Assembly (NCBI RefSeq): GCF_057098645.1
Contig: NZ_CM169472.1
Strand: one strand, 5' to 3'
DNA length: 64,000 bases
Of the stretch, positions 28,401 through 34,400 are shown in pieces; positions within the stretch are counted from its first letter, which is position 1, and every line of letters begins with the position of its first letter. The position numbers were made by a program.

Positions 28401-31400
28401 AATCCCATTCATCAGGGTCTTTATCGCCGCCATAATCAAACAACAGATTAGTCACCATTGTGGTAACGCATTCCAGCAACACAACCTCATTCGGGTTAAT
28501 GTCTGCATGAATTAATTCATCAAGATGTTGCCAGCGCTCCACTGTGCGCCAGTGCTCCGGGCGGCCTTGCCGATGATGTTCTATCCGTGCAGCCATCTCA
28601 TCATCAAGGATTTGCGAGGTAGCGATATACAGAACCTGTGAAGAGTCCCCAATAAGCGCCTCTGCGTGGCGACTCTTCCCGCTCCGTGCGCCCCCCGTCA
28701 CCAAAATCATCATACCGACTCCTGATTCAAATGTATGATGGTATTCATTGAACAGAACAATGGATCCCCCACCGTTGCTGACCGCAAAACATTTACGCGA
28801 TTAATACTGCGCGTAATATAATTAAAAATCCAGCATTCTCAATCCATTACGAAATAAGATGGCATTACGGAATAGCCAGACTTTCTCGTGTTAACGTCCG
28901 ACAAAATGTGTCATTGACAGCGGTTTCTGTGGATTGACACATTTCATTCAGATAATGAATTAATGCTACTGCCGGACCAACCAGCAAACGGGCATTGTGT
29001 TCTGAAATCCAGGCTATTGATTCAACGTCAGCGACAGATCTGCGCTGTAAAAGAACTTGTAAAACAACGCAATAGAATTATCCGGAATGGTGGCGACTAT
29101 GCACTAGAACACCACAATTTCGCTCTCTCGGTAAGGCACTGTCACAGCATTCAACAGAATGTGACTTGCCAGATTTATTAGCGCCACCAGATGTTTAACC
29201 GGGTAACCACGACCCAGTCGGGGATATATTCCATCTTCTCGCTGACATCATCAAGAATAAAAAGGTTTATCACACTCAGAGCAACGTTCTTCAGCAGGCG
29301 GGATAATTCTTCAACATTTAAAAGATGTGTTATTAAAGGCATACAAACTGGACGTATTGTATTTTCTTTTGGTGGTTGACCTAAGGTAGCAGTTTATCCT
29401 GATGCGCTGAGATTTCTGTAATATCTACGTCAACATTCTCCTCGAATAGAAAATGCAGCCCCGGCAAGTGATTCACATTTTTTAACAAAACGTTGTTAGC
29501 GTGCCATTTTCAGAAGCTCTCCAAGAAAGCGAATTCTTTTCTCAAATTCTGCATTCTCAGACACAGCTTTCTACTCCATGGCAATGGCCCAAATACGAAG
29601 TTGCTCAGGATCATTAGTGGTGCTGAGAAGTTAAATAACCATGCGGAGTACCACTCGTCATCACGTATTTATATATCATGAAGCTATTGTTGTGTTTTGT
29701 ACATCAGTAGATGTATTCTGATATACTCCTTTTGCTAGACATAACCTTTCACCTGCTTGCAAAGCTTCTGTGTTCTGACATTGCCAAATTGTTGCAATTC
29801 TGTATCCAGCCTTCTTTCAGTCATAGCTTCGGGCCGCGATAAGACTCACTGATCTGACCCTGATTCCTCTTGCAGACTTTATAGACCAATTAAAATGCAG
29901 TTTCTGCAGGTCAACGTCTGACCATCATTGTCATCACTCTGGCCATTAGAGTAACCTTCTGCATTCATCCTTTTGTAAAAAGTTTATAGACTGGCCCCCT
30001 GAATCTCCAGACAACCAATATCACTTAAATAAGTGATAGTCCTGATACAAGTTTTTAGAGTAGTCATTAGTGAACAGATAATTGTTAACTTAGAACCAGT
30101 AAAATGCAAACGACGCACCACGCTGGGAAAATCGCTGCTATTCAGCAGAGTTTTGTACCGAGAATTGTGGCCAGCCACTTATTGCTCTCGCGTAAGCAGG
30201 TATCCCCATCGTTTACCAGTCCAGCACATCTTGTGGTCAGGCAGAAGAAGAGCAAACTGTTACTGGACTCACTGCATGCATGGTGGAGAAAAATGCCACG
30301 CTATCCAAAAATCCAGACTGGGAGAATGGTTCAGCTGTGTACTGAATCAGTGGGGCGCACTCTGTTATTACAGTGTTGACGGTCAGGCGGAGGCAGACAT
30401 AATGCCGCGGAAAAAGCCCTTTGTGCCATCTGTCTCGGAAATAAAAACTTTATGTTCTTCGGCGGCGAGCGCAGTGCACTGTTGTATGGGCTTATCGGCA
30501 CTTGCCTTCTGAACGACATTGATCCGGAAGCGTATCTGCGCCATATTCTGAGCGTACTGCCGGAATAACCTTCCAACCGTATTGATGAACTCCTGCCATG
30601 GAACGTAGTTCTCACCAATAAATAAGCATCAATATGATTCTCCATTAACGCTTACCTTTTCTCAGGCTATTTTTGCTTTTTTTTGCTTTTCCCCGCCACT
30701 TTATGGTGATTATCACATCAATATACATCGATAGATATTAACGTAACTGCAGTGAGGTGAAGCATGAAATTTGAACGCCATCATGAAATATTGAAACGAC
30801 TCAGTAAATTCGGTTCTGTAAAAGTATCCGATCTGTCCAATAGCCTCAATGTAACGAAAGAAACTATTCGTTCAGATCTTAATGAACTTGCCAGGCTTGG
30901 CTATCTGACTCGATGTCATGGCGGTGCTTTTATCGTCCTAGACTCGCTTGATACTATTGCGAAAAATGAAATCGCTTATGCGCTTGAAAATTATGATACA
31001 GCCCAGGGAATAAAAAAAGGCCACTCAACTATGAAAAGTCAAGTATGCGTTATTGGTTCGTTTAATGTTGATATCATCAGTTATTTGCCGAGGCTTCCCA
31101 CTATCGGAGAATCGCTTCTGGCAAGTAATTTTATATTTTCACCGGGGGGAAAAGGCTGTAACCAGGCGCTGGCAGCAAGCTTTGCCGATACTGATGTTTA
31201 TTTCATAACAAAAGTAGGTACAGATCACTTTAGTGATTATGCGATCAACTTTATGAATTCGTCTAAGATTTATAAAAGTATAATTTATCAAACGAAAGAA
31301 ACGCAAACCGAAACTGCCACGATCCTTGTTAATGAAGGTACTGGCGATAATGTTATTGCGATCTATCCCGGTGCCAACATGACAATGTCGTCCGATGAAA

Positions 31401-34400
31401 TAACTATTCAGAAAGAAGCGATTATTAATTCTGATGTCATACTTCTGCAGCTCGAAACAAATTATACCGCTCTGCAACAAGCGATCACATTGGCGCAAAA
31501 AAACAGTATCCCGGTCATTATTAACCCGGCACCCTATAATGATATCGTCAACGAACTTATTCAGGATGTTGATTATATCACCCCCAATGAAACAGAAGCT
31601 GGTTTACTGTCCGGCATAGACGTACACGATCTTGAATCAGCTAAACGAGCTGCAGAAGCTATCCACAATAAAGGGGTAAAAAACACGGTTATCACGCTCG
31701 GTAGCAAGGGCTCGCTCGCATTTGATGGCAAAAAATTCATTCATTCGCCAGCGTTTCCAGCGGTCGTTAAAAATACGGCAGGAGCCGGGGATGCGTTTAA
31801 CGGCTCTCTGGCATCAGGACTTGCGAAAGGAAAATCACTGGAATCAGCACTGTGTTATGCCAGCGCCTTTGCATCCCTAGCGGTGGAGACAAGCAATGCT
31901 TCCGACATGCCTGAACATGAATCTGTGATACATCGAATTCAGAGTATACATTATCAGCAAACTATTTTTACGCATTAAGAAGGGACAGAGAATGAATAAC
32001 ACCAAAAAATCACTAAAAGTGCTCTTTATTGGGGATGGATTTGCCCCTATATTTCCAGACATCTGTTATCACTTAACCCATTACAAGCCCGCTGCCGCAG
32101 ATATTCCCGTGGCGAGCGATAACCCAGCGCACTATGCGGATGCCATTCGTTATAATGCTCGAACGCCTCTGCAAGGTTCTTTGCTGCCGTTAACCCGTCT
32201 GGTTTGGGCATGATACTGATGTAGTCACGCTTTATCGTTTTCACGAAGCTCTCTGCTATTCCGTTACTCTCCGGACTCCGCACCGCCGTGTTCTTCGGTT
32301 CAAGTCCCAACATCCGGGCGAACTGGCGTGTTTCATTAGCCCGGTAGCATGAACCATTATCCGTCAGCCACTCCACTGGAGACGACGGAAGATCGTTGCC
32401 GAAGCGGCGTTCCACCGCTCCCAGCATGACGTCCTGTACTGTTTCACTGTTGAAGCCGCCGGTAGTCACCGCCCAGTGCAGTGCCTCACGATCACAGCAG
32501 TCCAGCGCGAACGTGACACGCAGTCTCTCTCCGTTATCACAGCAGAACTCGAACCCGTCAGAGCACCATCGCTGATTGCTTTCTTTCACGGCCACTCTGC
32601 CTGTATGTGCCCGTTTCGATGGCGGTACAGCAGGTTTTCGCTCAAGCAACAGCGCATTCTGGCGCATGATCCGGTAAACACGTTTGGCATTGATCGCAGG
32701 CATACCATCAAGTTCTGCCTGTCTGCGAAGCAGCGCCCATACCCGACGATAACCATACGTGGGCAGCTCTCCGATAACATGGTGTATACGGAGAAGCACA
32801 TCCGTATCATCAGTGTGACGACTGCGGCGGCCATCCATCCAGTCATCGGTTCGTCTGAGAATGACGTGCAACTGCGCACGCGACACCCGGAGACAACGGC
32901 TGACTAAGCTTACTCCCCATCCCCGGGCAATAAGGGCGCGTGCGCTATCCACTTTTTTGCCCGTCCATATTCAACGGCTTCTTTGAGGAGTTCATTTTCC
33001 ATCGTTTTCTTGCCGAGCAGGCGCTGGAGTTCTTTAATCTGCTTCATGGCGGCAGCAAGTTCAGAGGCAGGAACAACCTGTTCTCCGGCGGCCACAGCAG
33101 TAAGACTTCCTTCCTGGTATTGCTTACGCCAGAGAAATAACTGGCTGGCTGCTACACCATGTTGCCGGGCAACGAGGGAGACCGTCATCCCCGGTTCAAA
33201 GCTCTGCTGAACAATTGCGATCTTTTCCTGTGTGGTACGCCGTCTGCGTTTCTCCGGCCCTAAGACATCAATCATCTGTTCTCCAATGACTAGTCTAAAA
33301 ACTAGTATTAAGACTATCACTTATTTAAGTGATACTGGTTGTCTGGAGATTCAGGGGGCCAGTCTATCTGGAGATTCAGGGGGCCAGTCTAAGATGTCCT
33401 TACCCTGCGCCATCTGCAGCTTCTGCACCAGAACCGGTGAATCTCACTCAACAGGCTTCATTTCCCCTGACGCCAGCCTGAATACAGCTGGCGTTTTCAT
33501 TTATAAACAGAAAGGAAAACCGATAATAATGGAATGGACGCCCCGACCATGAAGCAACGGTAGGATATTACTGATAAACCTTCCAGTGGAGGTGCGTTAT
33601 GGCCGTTTTAACGATTAGCATTGACCTGACAAAAAATGAATTCCAAATCCACGGTCTGGGTAGGAACAGAAAAATCTAAGCTCAGAAAACGGATTAAAGT
33701 AAGCGTCAACGGAGCACCGTATTGACGCTTATTTATTGGTGAGAACTACGTTCCATGGCAGGAGTTCGTCAACACGGTTGGAGGGCCATTCCGGCAGTAT
33801 GCTCAGAATATGGCGCAGATACGCTTCCGGATCGATACCGTTCAGACGGCAGGTGCCTGCTTTTCCGGCAACAAGCAGGAATCTCAGTGCTGAAGCAGGA
33901 ATTAGAGGTAAAAACGCCCTACCGGGCCATGAATCACCCGGTCATTGGAGTAGTAACCAAAGCAGATTTAGCCAGCATGGAACAAATATCTTTGGTGAAA
34001 AGTTGGTTACGGGAAGCTGGAGCGCACAACGTGTTAGTAACCAGTGCAGTTAATAACAATGGAGTTACAGAACTTTTTGCCTTGCTGCATACAGAAGAAG
34101 GCTGTTGTTAATTTCGATTGGTTCTCAGATGAGAATGATGACGGTGATACACAGATAAGAATCAATGAGCAATGAGGGTTGCCGGGCAACCCTCATTGAA
34201 TAAAACGGGAATTACTTCGCTTCGCCGTTTTTCATTTCGCCCATAGCTTTCAGCTTTTTGGAGATATCGCGGCGTTCTTTGGAGAGCTCGGCATTTTTGA
34301 TGATGTAATCGTCAACGCGATCTTCATAGTCACCTTTCATGCTGGCGATGATGCCCTGGATTGCTTCAACGCTCATCCCAGGCTTGATGTAATCGCTCAG

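What the first reader, a model, noticed from the sequence alone, without database searches (positions are those of the whole stretch)
30764..31978. AT-rich gene for a DeoR-HTH fused to a PfkB/ribokinase-like domain inside an IS-bracketed segment
The ORF joins a DeoR-type DNA-binding domain to a complete-looking carbohydrate kinase domain with GG box and GAGD motif. This suggests a one-component regulator that senses or phosphorylates a sugar or nucleoside, or a kinase that autoregulates its own operon. It is compositionally foreign and flanked by IS remnants, and the next gene downstream (start at 31992) has been cut off by IS2, so the original operon context is lost.
Basis: partly seen in the sequence, partly recalled or inferred. 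Interest (0 to 1): 0.55.

Follow-up and report, generated by a model that had tools for sequence, protein, structure and literature searches.

The report
E. coli rikA: ribokinase with DeoR domain
This is the E. coli copy of rikA, a ribose kinase characterised in Salmonella in 2026 that carries a DNA-binding domain at its front. Here it is stranded, because an IS2 element removed the rest of its four-gene cassette, so the gene is known, although what its DNA-binding domain does is still unsettled.

Summary
Window 30764-31978 (+) is one uninterrupted 404-codon ORF with HTH_DeoR (aa 5-56) and PfkB (aa 92-382). It has 41.5% G+C, IS remnants on its left and a complete IS2 on its right. IS2 cuts the next gene after 44 nt.

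It is not new. It is 80-82% identical to, and the same length as, Salmonella STM3547/RikA. McCormick et al. (Mol Microbiol, June 2026) showed that RikA is a ribose kinase with an essential Asp343. RefSeq already names the E. coli gene "ribokinase RikA".

That paper suggested the protein starts at Met90, without the HTH. My comparisons argue that the HTH is also made:
- its dN/dS is about 0.1-0.3;
- its recognition-helix residues are invariant down to 45% identity;
- a strong Shine-Dalgarno sequence precedes Met1 in all 10 loci examined.

A conserved upstream element travels with every homologue, whatever genes follow it. It consists of two 10-bp-phased TTTTGnTTT repeats and TATGR-N6-TCAC. Met90 is also conserved (77 of 92 homologues).

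Most likely the ORF gives a long regulator-kinase and a short kinase. Regulation is inferred, not shown. In this window the cassette is truncated and the allele carries G183E at an otherwise conserved glycine.

The parts
29986..30130 (.). IS2-like terminal remnant on the left flank of the segment
   Evidence: It forms a 145-nt inverted repeat, 84% complementary, with the IS2 end at 33223-33367. An ORF here resembles the start of IS2 orfA.
30230..30568 (+). IS66-family transposase remnant, frameshifted and lacking its N-terminus
   Evidence: RefSeq annotates the collinear stretch this way in E. coli TUM1223, CT30 and CE0011b. The coordinates are mapped by the offset from rikA. A 162-nt inverted repeat, 30497-30658 / 33696-33857, is 89% complementary.
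30670..30689 (+). Two tandem 10-bp repeats (TTTTTGCTTT, twice). Candidate operator of the HTH; alternatively a phased T-tract or UP-like promoter element.
   Evidence: Invariant block in the alignment of 7 genera. Related TTTTGTTT repeats stand upstream of other clades of the fusion. The 15-mer TTTTGNTTTNTTTTG occurs only upstream of HTH-PfkB genes in 1.17 Mb of fetched DNA. In the metagenome scan, 18 of 23 hits lie 47-48 nt before a rikA orthologue.
30702..30717 (+). TATGG-N6-TCACA: a conserved element with CRP-like half-sites (8 of 10 matches to TGTGA-N6-TCACA)
   Evidence: ATCACA is invariant in 7 genera, and TATGR-N6-TCAC is kept in other clades. Its centre lies 29.5 bp upstream of the -10-like hexamer, which would put it at about -41.5. 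As a lone match it is no better than chance in this window: 30 found, 29.8 expected.
30739..30744 (+). -10-like hexamer TAACGT. Aligned hexamers are TAATTT, TACATT, TAGAGT and TAAATT in the other genera.
   Evidence: Read from alignment A2 and the sequence. It was not picked up by the consensus promoter scan. Inference only.
30754..30759 (+). Shine-Dalgarno sequence GAGGTG, 4 nt before ATG1
   Evidence: GAGGT is invariant in 7 genera. Duplex energy with the 16S 3' end is -12.4 kcal/mol here and -7.0 to -12.9 in all 10 loci.
30764..31978 (+). rikA ORF, 404 codons plus stop
   Evidence: It is 80-82% identical to the 404-aa Salmonella proteins. RefSeq names the gene 'ribokinase RikA'.
30776..30931 (+). 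DeoR-type winged helix-turn-helix, aa 5-56
   Evidence: Pfam PF08220, E 4.9e-15. The best NCBIfam matches are AgaR, GlpR, FucR and SrlR. The AF2 model shows a winged helix; its block-mean pLDDT over residues 1-60 is 64-89. Residues R5, V21, V30, E33, T34, R36, D38, L39, R50, G53 and G54 are invariant in 97 homologues. dN/dS is 0.11-0.35.
30989..31030 (+). Low-confidence, probably flexible linker, aa 76-89
   Evidence: AF2 pLDDT is below 50 for residues 76-89. Linker sequence is poorly conserved.
31031..31033 (+). Internal ATG (Met90): start of the short, kinase-only product reported for Salmonella RikA
   Evidence: PMC13432705 section 2.5. Met is present at this position in 77 of 92 full-length homologues, against 0.9% Met in the rest of the linker. 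The SD is only weak here, -3.2 kcal/mol.
31037..31909 (+). PfkB / ribokinase domain, aa 92-382
   Evidence: Pfam PF00294, E 4.1e-64. E. coli RbsK (1GQT/1RKD) matches at E 6.9e-51. TIGR02152 scores 279.9 bits, below its cut-off of 299.65.
31310..31312 (+). Codon 183, GAA (Glu), where homologues have Gly
   Evidence: It aligns with Gly96 of E. coli RbsK. This exact allele is the commonest intact E. coli allele.
31781..31792 (+). GAGD motif with the catalytic Asp343
   Evidence: Aligns with RbsK D255. D343A abolishes activity in Salmonella RikA.
31992..32035 (+). First 44 nt of the GATase1-like gene (STM3548 orthologue), truncated
   Evidence: The sequence is identical to the intact E. coli gene in L094 up to window position 32035 and then diverges into IS2.
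32036..33366 (-). Complete IS2, 1331 bp
   Evidence: The termini are read. OrfA and orfB lie on the minus strand. RefSeq names the element IS2 in collinear genomes.
33367..33391 (.). Extra 25-nt copy of the IS2 terminus, directly abutting IS2
   Evidence: Direct repeat D1 and inverted repeat I3. Homology to the usual yeeP/yeeX-side flank begins at about 33391.

Best explanation
The ORF is the E. coli orthologue of Salmonella rikA (STM3547). It encodes an ATP-dependent ribokinase-type PfkB kinase with a DeoR-type winged HTH fused to its N-terminus.

In other bacteria it is the first gene of a low-G+C, horizontally mobile four-gene cassette: rikA, a GATase1-like gene, a DMT_YdcZ transporter gene and a PTE-like amidohydrolase gene. 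The cassette carries its own promoter region and no separate regulator gene.

I propose that the ORF yields two nested products. The long form starts at Met1 (HTH plus kinase) and acts as the cassette's own regulator. Its kinase domain senses the ligand (ribose or a ribose-like compound, plus ATP). Its HTH binds the two phased TTTTGnTTT repeats just upstream of a probably CRP-assisted promoter. The short form (Met90-404) is the free enzyme. It arises either by internal initiation or by clipping of the flexible linker.

Shown here or in the literature: the domain architecture, orthology, kinase activity of the orthologue, existence of the short form, purifying selection on the HTH, and the conserved upstream element.

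Inferred: DNA binding, the identity of the operator, CRP dependence, and how the short form arises.

In this window the system is a stump. IS2 removed everything after nucleotide 44 of the second gene, and the allele has G183E in the kinase core. rikA here is at best an orphan auxiliary ribokinase.
For: Identity and kinase:
- Pfam domains are as described.
- The protein is 80-82% identical to, and the same length as, the Salmonella 404-aa proteins.
- RefSeq names the gene rikA.
- All RbsK ribose, ATP and catalytic positions checked are conserved.
- Published work shows ribose kinase activity, an inactive D343A mutant, and a 35-kDa product from the native upstream region.

The HTH is functional:
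- dN/dS is 0.19 for E. coli-Salmonella, 0.21 for Citrobacter-Klebsiella and 0.11 for Citrobacter-Budvicia. dN in the HTH is similar to dN in the kinase domain.
- Eleven HTH residues are invariant in 97 homologues down to 45% identity.
- AF2 folds the region as a winged helix.
- The SD before Met1 is strong in 10 of 10 loci, -7.0 to -12.9 kcal/mol.

Regulator role:
- The cassette sits at different chromosomal places in Salmonella, Citrobacter, Budvicia, Providencia, Klebsiella and Hafnia, with no regulator gene called next to it in the fetched flanks.
- Paralogous HTH-PfkB genes head other cassettes: nucleoside hydrolase with a NupC-type transporter, an ABC transporter with ADP-ribosylglycohydrolase, and DHDPS-like with DUF386 and MFS.
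- All of them keep the TTTTGnTTT repeats and TATGR-N6-TCAC at about -95 to -47.
- The repeat is found nowhere else in 1.17 Mb of fetched DNA.
- In metagenomes, 18 of 23 pattern hits precede rikA orthologues.
- Providencia has a second repeat pair 31 bp upstream.
- E. coli-Salmonella homology begins at this element.

Short form:
- Met90 is kept in 77 of 92 homologues, against 0.9% background Met in the linker.
- The linker at residues 76-89 is predicted to be disordered.

Decay in this window.
Against: - The only experiment on the N-terminus found just the ~35 kDa form, with and without induction. Its authors suggest the HTH is not part of the protein under their conditions.
- No DNA-binding or expression data exist.
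- The T-rich repeats could be phased T-tracts or a UP-like element rather than an operator.
- The CRP-like site in this window is at chance level when taken alone.
- The consensus promoter scan does not call a promoter at the conserved element.
- The SD before Met90 is weak in E. coli and Salmonella, -3.2 and -3.9 kcal/mol, no better than about a third of in-gene windows. Internal initiation is therefore not clearly signalled.
- The homologues are phylogenetically related, so counts such as 77 of 92 are not independent events.
- G183E and the loss of the cassette may mean that nothing works in this genome.
Confidence: 0.6

Rival explanations
1. The true gene is only Met90-404, a plain auxiliary ribokinase. 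The 89 upstream codons are a translated-by-annotation leader, or the relic of a former regulator gene, with no present function.
For: Salmonella RikA made from its native upstream region is ~35 kDa, and RikA(90-404) fully supports growth on ribose. Met90 aligns with the start of stand-alone RbsK and DeoK. Gene callers pick the 315-aa Met90 product where the 5' part is broken (P0008).
Against: The HTH codons are under purifying selection, with dN similar to the kinase domain. The recognition helix is invariant in 97 homologues. The reading frame is open from Met1 in all 10 fetched fusion loci, which span several clades and genera. A 7-9-nt SD precedes Met1 in 10 of 10 loci, while the SD before Met90 is weak. 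A relic would have decayed over this depth of divergence.
Confidence: 0.15
2. In this genome the gene is a non-functional leftover of a decaying island. The ORF is intact only by chance or recency, and neither the kinase nor the regulator works.
For: The cassette is cut by IS2 after 44 nt of gene 2.

Glu replaces the conserved Gly183, which is Gly96 of RbsK.

Other E. coli lineages carry independent lesions:
- a 1-nt deletion at codon 127;
- a 4-nt deletion at codons 324-325;
- Q81*;
- IS2 at about codon 381.
The DMT gene is a pseudogene in the E. coli copies examined.
Against: All 404 codons are open. All catalytic and ribose-binding positions other than 183 are intact. The promoter region, SD and repeats match the conserved pattern seen in other E. 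coli. The exact allele is found in thousands of assemblies without further damage. In Salmonella, rikA alone is enough for growth on ribose.
Confidence: 0.2
3. It is a pure regulator. The PfkB domain serves only as a ligand sensor, as the kinase-like domain does in ROK repressors such as Mlc, and phosphorylation is not its physiological job.
For: kcat and kcat/Km of RikA are one to two orders of magnitude below RbsK (the paper gives both figures), and the authors call the ribose activity possibly moonlighting. The protein scores below the NCBIfam ribokinase equivalog cut-offs.
Against: The catalytic Asp, the NXXE and GG motifs and the ribose ligands are all conserved across the family. The orthologue supports growth on ribose from the chromosome. 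The short HTH-less form is abundant.
Confidence: 0.05

Closest known systems
Salmonella enterica RikA (STM3547), McCormick, Jabbar & Escalante-Semerena, Mol Microbiol 2026 (PMC13432705)
   Same: Same length (404 aa) and 80-82% identity over the whole protein. Same HTH_DeoR + PfkB architecture, Met90 and Asp343. The same downstream gene starts 13-15 nt after the stop. The same upstream repeats, TATGG-N6-TCACA and SD are present.
   Different: The Salmonella copy lies between a yhhY-like acetyltransferase gene and ggt and keeps all four cassette genes. The window copy lies in the cobU-yeeX island, has lost genes 2-4 to IS2 and has Glu183 instead of Gly.
E. coli ribokinase RbsK (PDB 1RKD/1GQT)
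   Same: The kinase domain is homologous (E 6.9e-51). The ribose ligands N14/D16/G42/K43/N46/E143, the NXXE motif and D255 are all matched.
   Different: RbsK has no HTH and sits in the rbsDACBKR operon with a separate LacI-type repressor. RikA scores below the RbsK equivalog cut-offs: 279.9 against 299.65 bits and 249.1 against 341. RikA kcat/Km is about 10-100 times lower.
DeoR/GlpR-family sugar regulators (AgaR, GlpR, FucR, SrlR, UlaR)
   Same: Same N-terminal HTH_DeoR domain. These regulators typically control sugar catabolic operons next to their own gene (general knowledge of the family).
   Different: The usual C-terminal DeoRC sugar-phosphate-binding domain is absent and replaced by a catalytically competent PfkB kinase.
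Regulator-enzyme fusions: ROK repressors (NagC, Mlc), NadR, BirA; E. coli YeiI (HTH + PfkB). Recalled from general knowledge, not tested here.
   Same: A DNA-binding domain is joined to a kinase or kinase-like domain, so that substrate binding can be read out as transcription.
   Different: Their folds and HTH types differ. None is known to be made as two nested isoforms with a kinase-only form. YeiI's PfkB profile (NF007416) matches only weakly: 43.7 bits against a cut-off of 561.

Membership tests
PfkB / ribokinase family of carbohydrate kinases | Significant match to the PfkB profile over the whole domain | tested here: met
   PF00294, E 4.1e-64, model positions 2-298 of 302.
PfkB / ribokinase family of carbohydrate kinases | GG dipeptide motif, NXXE motif and catalytic Asp in G-A/G-G-D | tested here: met
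   G128-G129, N275/E278 and G340-A-G-D343 align with RbsK G41-G42, N187/E190 and D255.
PfkB / ribokinase family of carbohydrate kinases | Kinase activity of this protein | not testable with these tools
   Activity was shown only for the 80%-identical Salmonella orthologue. The window allele differs at the conserved Gly183.
Canonical ribokinase RbsK (NCBIfam equivalogs TIGR02152, NF008353) | Score above the curated equivalog cut-off | tested here: not met
   279.9 bits against a cut-off of 299.65, and 249.1 against 341. It is a ribokinase-like paralogue, not RbsK.
RikA (STM3547) orthologous group | High full-length identity, same length and same architecture | tested here: met
   80-82% identity at 100% coverage, 404 aa, HTH_DeoR + PfkB.
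RikA (STM3547) orthologous group | Conserved cassette: rikA, GATase1-like, DMT_YdcZ, PTE-like | tested here: met
   The start of the GATase1-like gene follows rikA in the window. The full cassette is present in other E. coli at the same locus and in six other genera.
DeoR/GlpR family transcription regulators | N-terminal HTH_DeoR domain | tested here: met
   PF08220, E 4.9e-15. The AgaR, GlpR and FucR profiles match aa 1-63.
DeoR/GlpR family transcription regulators | C-terminal DeoRC effector-binding domain | tested here: not met
   There is no DeoRC hit; the C-terminal 315 aa are PfkB.
DeoR/GlpR family transcription regulators | Sequence-specific DNA binding and control of an adjacent operon | not testable with these tools
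   Only indirect evidence exists: the conserved repeats upstream of all homologues, and no other regulator gene in the cassettes.

The most novel reading that the evidence does not exclude
HTH_DeoR-PfkB proteins of Enterobacterales and Orbales form an unrecognised class of nested-isoform regulator-enzymes. In each, one ORF would give two products. The long form would bind the phased TTTTGnTTT repeats next to a CRP-dependent promoter. The short kinase-only form would both do the catalysis and, by pairing with the long form through the ribokinase dimer interface, tune its DNA binding. This would give cassettes for ribose-yielding compounds (nucleosides, ADP-ribosyl compounds, and the unknown RikA-cassette substrate) a built-in feedback.
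Probability: 0.2. Interest if true: 0.6.

Novelty: already known. Interest (0 to 1): 0.3.

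Why it matters
As a gene it adds little. It is a named, biochemically characterised ribokinase paralogue, and here it sits in a decayed island.

The useful point is a conflict that can be tested directly. The published experiment suggests the DNA-binding domain is not made, whereas sequence evolution says it is maintained by selection. Evolution also points to a specific, conserved candidate operator.

Resolving this would show whether a whole family of HTH-kinase fusions, which head several different sugar and nucleoside cassettes, are self-contained sensor-regulator-enzymes. 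It would also help find the still-unknown substrate of the rikA cassette, whose GATase1-like protein (PDB 2GK3) and the Proteus homologue of its PTE-like protein (PDB 3RHG/4QSF) have solved structures.

Tried and rejected
- The genome-contig scan with the family alignment was driven by generic ribokinase motifs (GGKG[CA]NQA, GAGDAFNG). It returned almost only ordinary ribokinases. Only L006 and L007 were fusion homologues, so orthologous loci were fetched one by one instead.
- The consensus sigma-70 scan found no promoter at the conserved element.
- The CRP consensus search in the window was at chance level. The CRP reading therefore rests only on cross-genus conservation and spacing.
- Rfam found no RNA family in 30400-32100, so a known riboswitch or leader is not the explanation for the conserved upstream block.
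- Literature searches for other characterised DeoR-PfkB fusions, for STM3548-3550, for Pmi1525 and for the AgaR operator consensus gave nothing usable beyond the RikA paper. I therefore make no claim that the repeats resemble a known DeoR-family operator.
- I looked for a mosaic or recombination explanation of the lower synonymous divergence in the HTH-coding part. Nucleotide identity between E. coli and Salmonella is roughly uniform (0.63-0.84) along the cassette, so none is evident.
- No complete E. coli genome in the collection has the window's exact arrangement across 28700-34300. IS2 sits at different places in the cassette in different strains.

Full report
**1. The observation**

Window 30764-31978 (+) is one 404-codon ORF with no frameshift or internal stop. 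Pfam finds HTH_DeoR at residues 5-56 (E 4.9e-15) and PfkB at residues 92-382 (E 4.1e-64).

The kinase signatures are all present: the GG motif (G128-G129 in SPGGKGCNQA), NXXE (N275, E278) and GAGD with Asp343. In the HMMER alignment to E. coli ribokinase (1GQT/1RKD, E 6.9e-51) they fall on RbsK G41/G42/K43/N46, N187/E190 and D255. The ribose ligands N14/D16 and E143 are matched by N101/D103 and E231.

The gene is 41.5% G+C. The window is 46.9%, and the neighbouring cob and yeeX-yeeA genes are 49-52%.

- On the left lie an IS2-like end remnant (29986-30130) and an IS66-family remnant.
- On the right lies a complete 1331-bp IS2 (32036-33366, transposase genes on the minus strand).
- IS2 is followed by an extra 25-nt copy of its terminus (33367-33391).

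The next gene starts at 31992. It is identical to the intact GATase1-like gene of other E. coli up to 32035, where IS2 begins.

**2. What it is**

The surrounding genes place the window on an E. coli-type chromosome, in the variable island between cobU and yeeX: cobT, cobS and cobU at 26337-28713, then yeeX/tmaR, yeeA and sbmC from 34212.

At least 80% of a 1.9-kb query centred on the gene (window 30400-32300) is present in 1953 of 5426 complete E. coli genomes. RefSeq calls the gene 'PfkB family carbohydrate kinase', 'ribokinase' or 'ribokinase RikA'.

The name comes from a June 2026 paper on Salmonella STM3547 (PMC13432705). That paper reports:
- RikA alone supports growth on ribose.
- Purified H6-MBP-RikA phosphorylates ribose, with Km about 2 mM for ribose and about 50 µM for ATP.
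- Its kcat/Km is one to two orders of magnitude below RbsK (the paper gives both figures).
- It acts poorly on deoxyribose, xylose and xylulose.
- D343A is inactive.

The window protein has the same length (404 aa) and is 80-82% identical to the Salmonella proteins. It keeps Met90 and Asp343. It is followed by the same second gene, so it is the E. coli orthologue. It scores just below NCBIfam's curated RbsK equivalog cut-offs (279.9 against 299.65 bits), which fits a ribokinase-like paralogue.

**3. The cassette**

Six other genera carry the same block, each at a different chromosomal place: Salmonella, Citrobacter, Budvicia, Providencia, Klebsiella and Hafnia. (The Hafnia contig ends within the third gene.) The block is:
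- rikA;
- a GATase1-like protein (PF07090; the Salmonella protein is PDB 2GK3);
- a DMT_YdcZ transporter;
- a PTE-like amidohydrolase (the Salmonella protein matches PDB 3RHG/4QSF, 'Amidohydrolase Pmi1525', at E 6e-172).

Several hundred bases of non-coding DNA lie upstream, and no regulator gene is called next to the block in the fetched flanks.

The E. coli island copies even retain a ggt fragment after the PTE-like gene. ggt is also the neighbour in Salmonella.

The gene is low in G+C in every host, 33-42%.

**4. Is the HTH real?**

The RikA paper recovered only a ~35 kDa C-terminally tagged product from a construct with 278 bp of native upstream DNA. It proposed that the protein starts at Met90, while saying more work is needed. 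Comparative data argue that the HTH is nevertheless a working, translated domain.

- **Purifying selection.** Nei-Gojobori estimates for codons 1-57 give pN 0.118 and pS 0.445 for E. coli-Salmonella (dN/dS 0.19). The values are 0.21 for Citrobacter-Klebsiella and 0.11 for Citrobacter-Budvicia. dN in the HTH (0.128) is about the same as in the kinase domain (0.117).
- **Invariant residues.** In 97 full-length homologues down to 45% identity, R5, V21, V30, E33, T34, R36, D38, L39, R50, G53 and G54 never change. The linker varies freely.
- **Fold.** AlphaFold2 folds residues 2-56 as a winged helix (block-mean pLDDT over residues 1-60 is 64-89) and the kinase domain with high confidence. Residues 76-89 fall below pLDDT 50.
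- **Translation signal.** Met1 is preceded by GAGGTG 4 nt upstream. Duplex energy with the 16S 3' end is -12.4 kcal/mol here and -7.0 to -12.9 in all ten loci examined. The stretch before Met90 gives only -3.2 (E. coli) and -3.9 (Salmonella), no better than about a third of in-gene windows.

Met90 is also conserved. Met is there in 77 of 92 full-length homologues, Val in 10, Ala in 3 and Thr in 2. Met makes up 0.9% of the rest of the linker. The sequences are related, so these are not independent counts.

The simplest reading is that both forms exist. The short one arises either by internal initiation or by clipping in the disordered linker. The published data do not distinguish the two.

**5. 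A conserved upstream element**

I aligned the 350 nt before the start codon from seven genera. Almost everything is scrambled except four blocks:
- two tandem 10-bp repeats, TTTTTGCTTT twice (window 30670-30689);
- TATGG-N6-TCACA, 12 nt further on (30702-30717);
- a -10-like TAnnnT hexamer (30739-30744);
- the SD.

Homology between the E. coli and Salmonella cassettes starts at this element.

The same layout precedes HTH-PfkB genes that head quite different cassettes. It consists of TTTTGnTT repeats about 10 bp apart, then TATGR-N6-TCAC, at about -95 to -47. Those cassettes are:
- nucleoside hydrolase, a NupC-type transporter and an MFS transporter (Salmonella paralogue, L091);
- an ABC transporter and ADP-ribosylglycohydrolase (S. 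bongori, L093);
- a DHDPS-like gene, DUF386 and an MFS transporter (Rahnella, L090);
- the Acerihabitans homologue (L006).

Further points:
- The 15-mer TTTTGNTTTNTTTTG occurs in 1.17 Mb of fetched DNA only upstream of these genes. Providencia has a second pair 31 bp further upstream.
- An exact-pattern scan of the metagenome collection gave 23 hits. Eighteen lie 47-48 nt before a rikA orthologue and five are unrelated chance matches.

An element that follows the conserved HTH regardless of the cargo is what an operator would look like.

The second block has CRP-like half-sites, and its centre is 29.5 bp from the -10-like hexamer. That would be the -41.5 position of a class II CRP promoter. 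By itself, however, this match is at chance level in the window (30 found, 29.8 expected). The generic promoter scan does not call the site.

Phased T-tracts could equally be a UP-like or curved-DNA element. No Rfam family matches the region.

The operator and CRP assignments are inference.

**6. State of the gene in this window and in E. coli**

IS2 has removed everything after nucleotide 44 of the second gene. To its right the sequence resumes in the usual yeeP/yeeX-side flank.

The allele carries Glu at codon 183 (GAA). Gly is found there in:
- all 15 other sequences of alignment A1;
- at least 90% of the 97 homologues in A4;
- both solved ribokinases in the printed alignments. The position is Gly96 of RbsK, which from my memory of the structure (not checked here) lies close to ribose-contacting residues.

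This exact protein is nevertheless the commonest intact E. coli allele. It is seen on at least 1000 contigs. In the six places fetched, the GATase1-like and PTE-like genes are intact but no DMT gene is called.

Other lineages show independent lesions:
- a 1-nt deletion at codon 127;
- a 4-nt deletion at codons 324-325;
- Q81*;
- IS2 insertions at different points;
- an internal stop in the DMT gene.

The cassette is decaying in E. coli, and the window holds a late stage of that process.

**7. Verdict**

The finding is real and the anatomy is right, but the gene is already known and named.

It is, however, better supported by sequence evolution than the published Met90-only reading.

My best account, at confidence 0.6, is as follows:
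- The gene is a rikA orthologue that encodes a long regulator-kinase and a short kinase.
- The phased repeats are the likely operator.
- Here the gene is stranded by IS2 and possibly weakened by G183E.

Novelty: already known. Interest is modest (0.3). It rests on the testable conflict about the HTH and on the family-wide pattern of HTH-kinase genes heading different cassettes for what may be ribose-yielding compounds (inferred from their Pfam domains).

Noticed in passing
window 33342-33391: The IS2 terminus TCTGGAGATTCAGGGGGCCAGTCTA occurs twice in direct tandem. The second copy lies outside the 1331-bp element. It is a perfect inverted match to the end of the IS2-like remnant at 29987-30011.
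   Followed up: partly
window 30497-30658 and 33696-33857: A 162-nt inverted repeat, 89% complementary, made of IS66-family remnants, brackets rikA and IS2. Together with the IS2 ends, the segment is flanked by two kinds of inverted IS remnants.
   Followed up: no
window 31310-31312 (codon 183): Glu replaces a Gly that is conserved in at least 90% of the aligned homologues and in both solved ribokinases aligned. Yet this is the commonest intact E. coli allele (at least 1000 contigs). Its effect on activity is unknown.
   Followed up: partly
L001 8365-9578, L002 7365-8574, L005 6065-7255 (E. coli TUM1223, CT30, CE0011b): rikA carries independent inactivating lesions in different E. coli lineages. 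They are a 1-nt deletion at codon 127, a 4-nt deletion at codons 324-325, Q81*, and IS2 at about codon 381. IS2 sits at a different place in the cassette in each strain. The DMT gene is a pseudogene in the E. coli copies examined.
   Followed up: partly
L001 13784-14076; L003 10093-11835: The E. coli island keeps a gamma-glutamyltransferase fragment right after the PTE-like gene. ggt is also the neighbour in Salmonella. This suggests the island captured the cassette from a Salmonella-like yhhY-ggt locus.
   Followed up: no
L091, L093, L090 (genes at 5001 in each): Paralogous HTH_DeoR-PfkB genes head other cassettes. These are nucleoside hydrolase with NupC-type and MFS transporters and an M20 peptidase; an ABC transporter with ADP-ribosylglycohydrolase; and a DHDPS-like gene with DUF386 and MFS. 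In each fetched locus no regulator gene lies between the fusion gene and its cassette.
   Followed up: partly
L088 4874-4888 and 4905-4919 (Providencia): Two pairs of TTTTGnTTT repeats lie 31 bp apart (about three helical turns) upstream of the rikA orthologue. Elsewhere there is a single pair.
   Followed up: no
window 30764-31030 compared with 31031-31978: Synonymous divergence between E. coli and Salmonella is lower in the HTH-coding part (pS 0.445) than in the kinase part (pS 0.79). The other pairs mostly show the same tendency, except Providencia-Hafnia and E. coli-Providencia. No mosaic is visible in sliding-window identity, and the cause is not established.
   Followed up: partly
window about 28865-29205: A short 'cobalamin biosynthesis protein' fragment and an IS4-family transposase fragment lie between cobU and the island. 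RefSeq annotates them in collinear E. coli genomes; the coordinates are mapped by offset from L001.
   Followed up: no
L003 9014-10048 and 7231-7992: The cassette's GATase1-like protein has a solved structure (2GK3, 'putative cytoplasmic protein'), and its PTE-like protein closely matches one (3RHG/4QSF, 'Amidohydrolase Pmi1525'). Neither has a known physiological substrate.
   Followed up: partly
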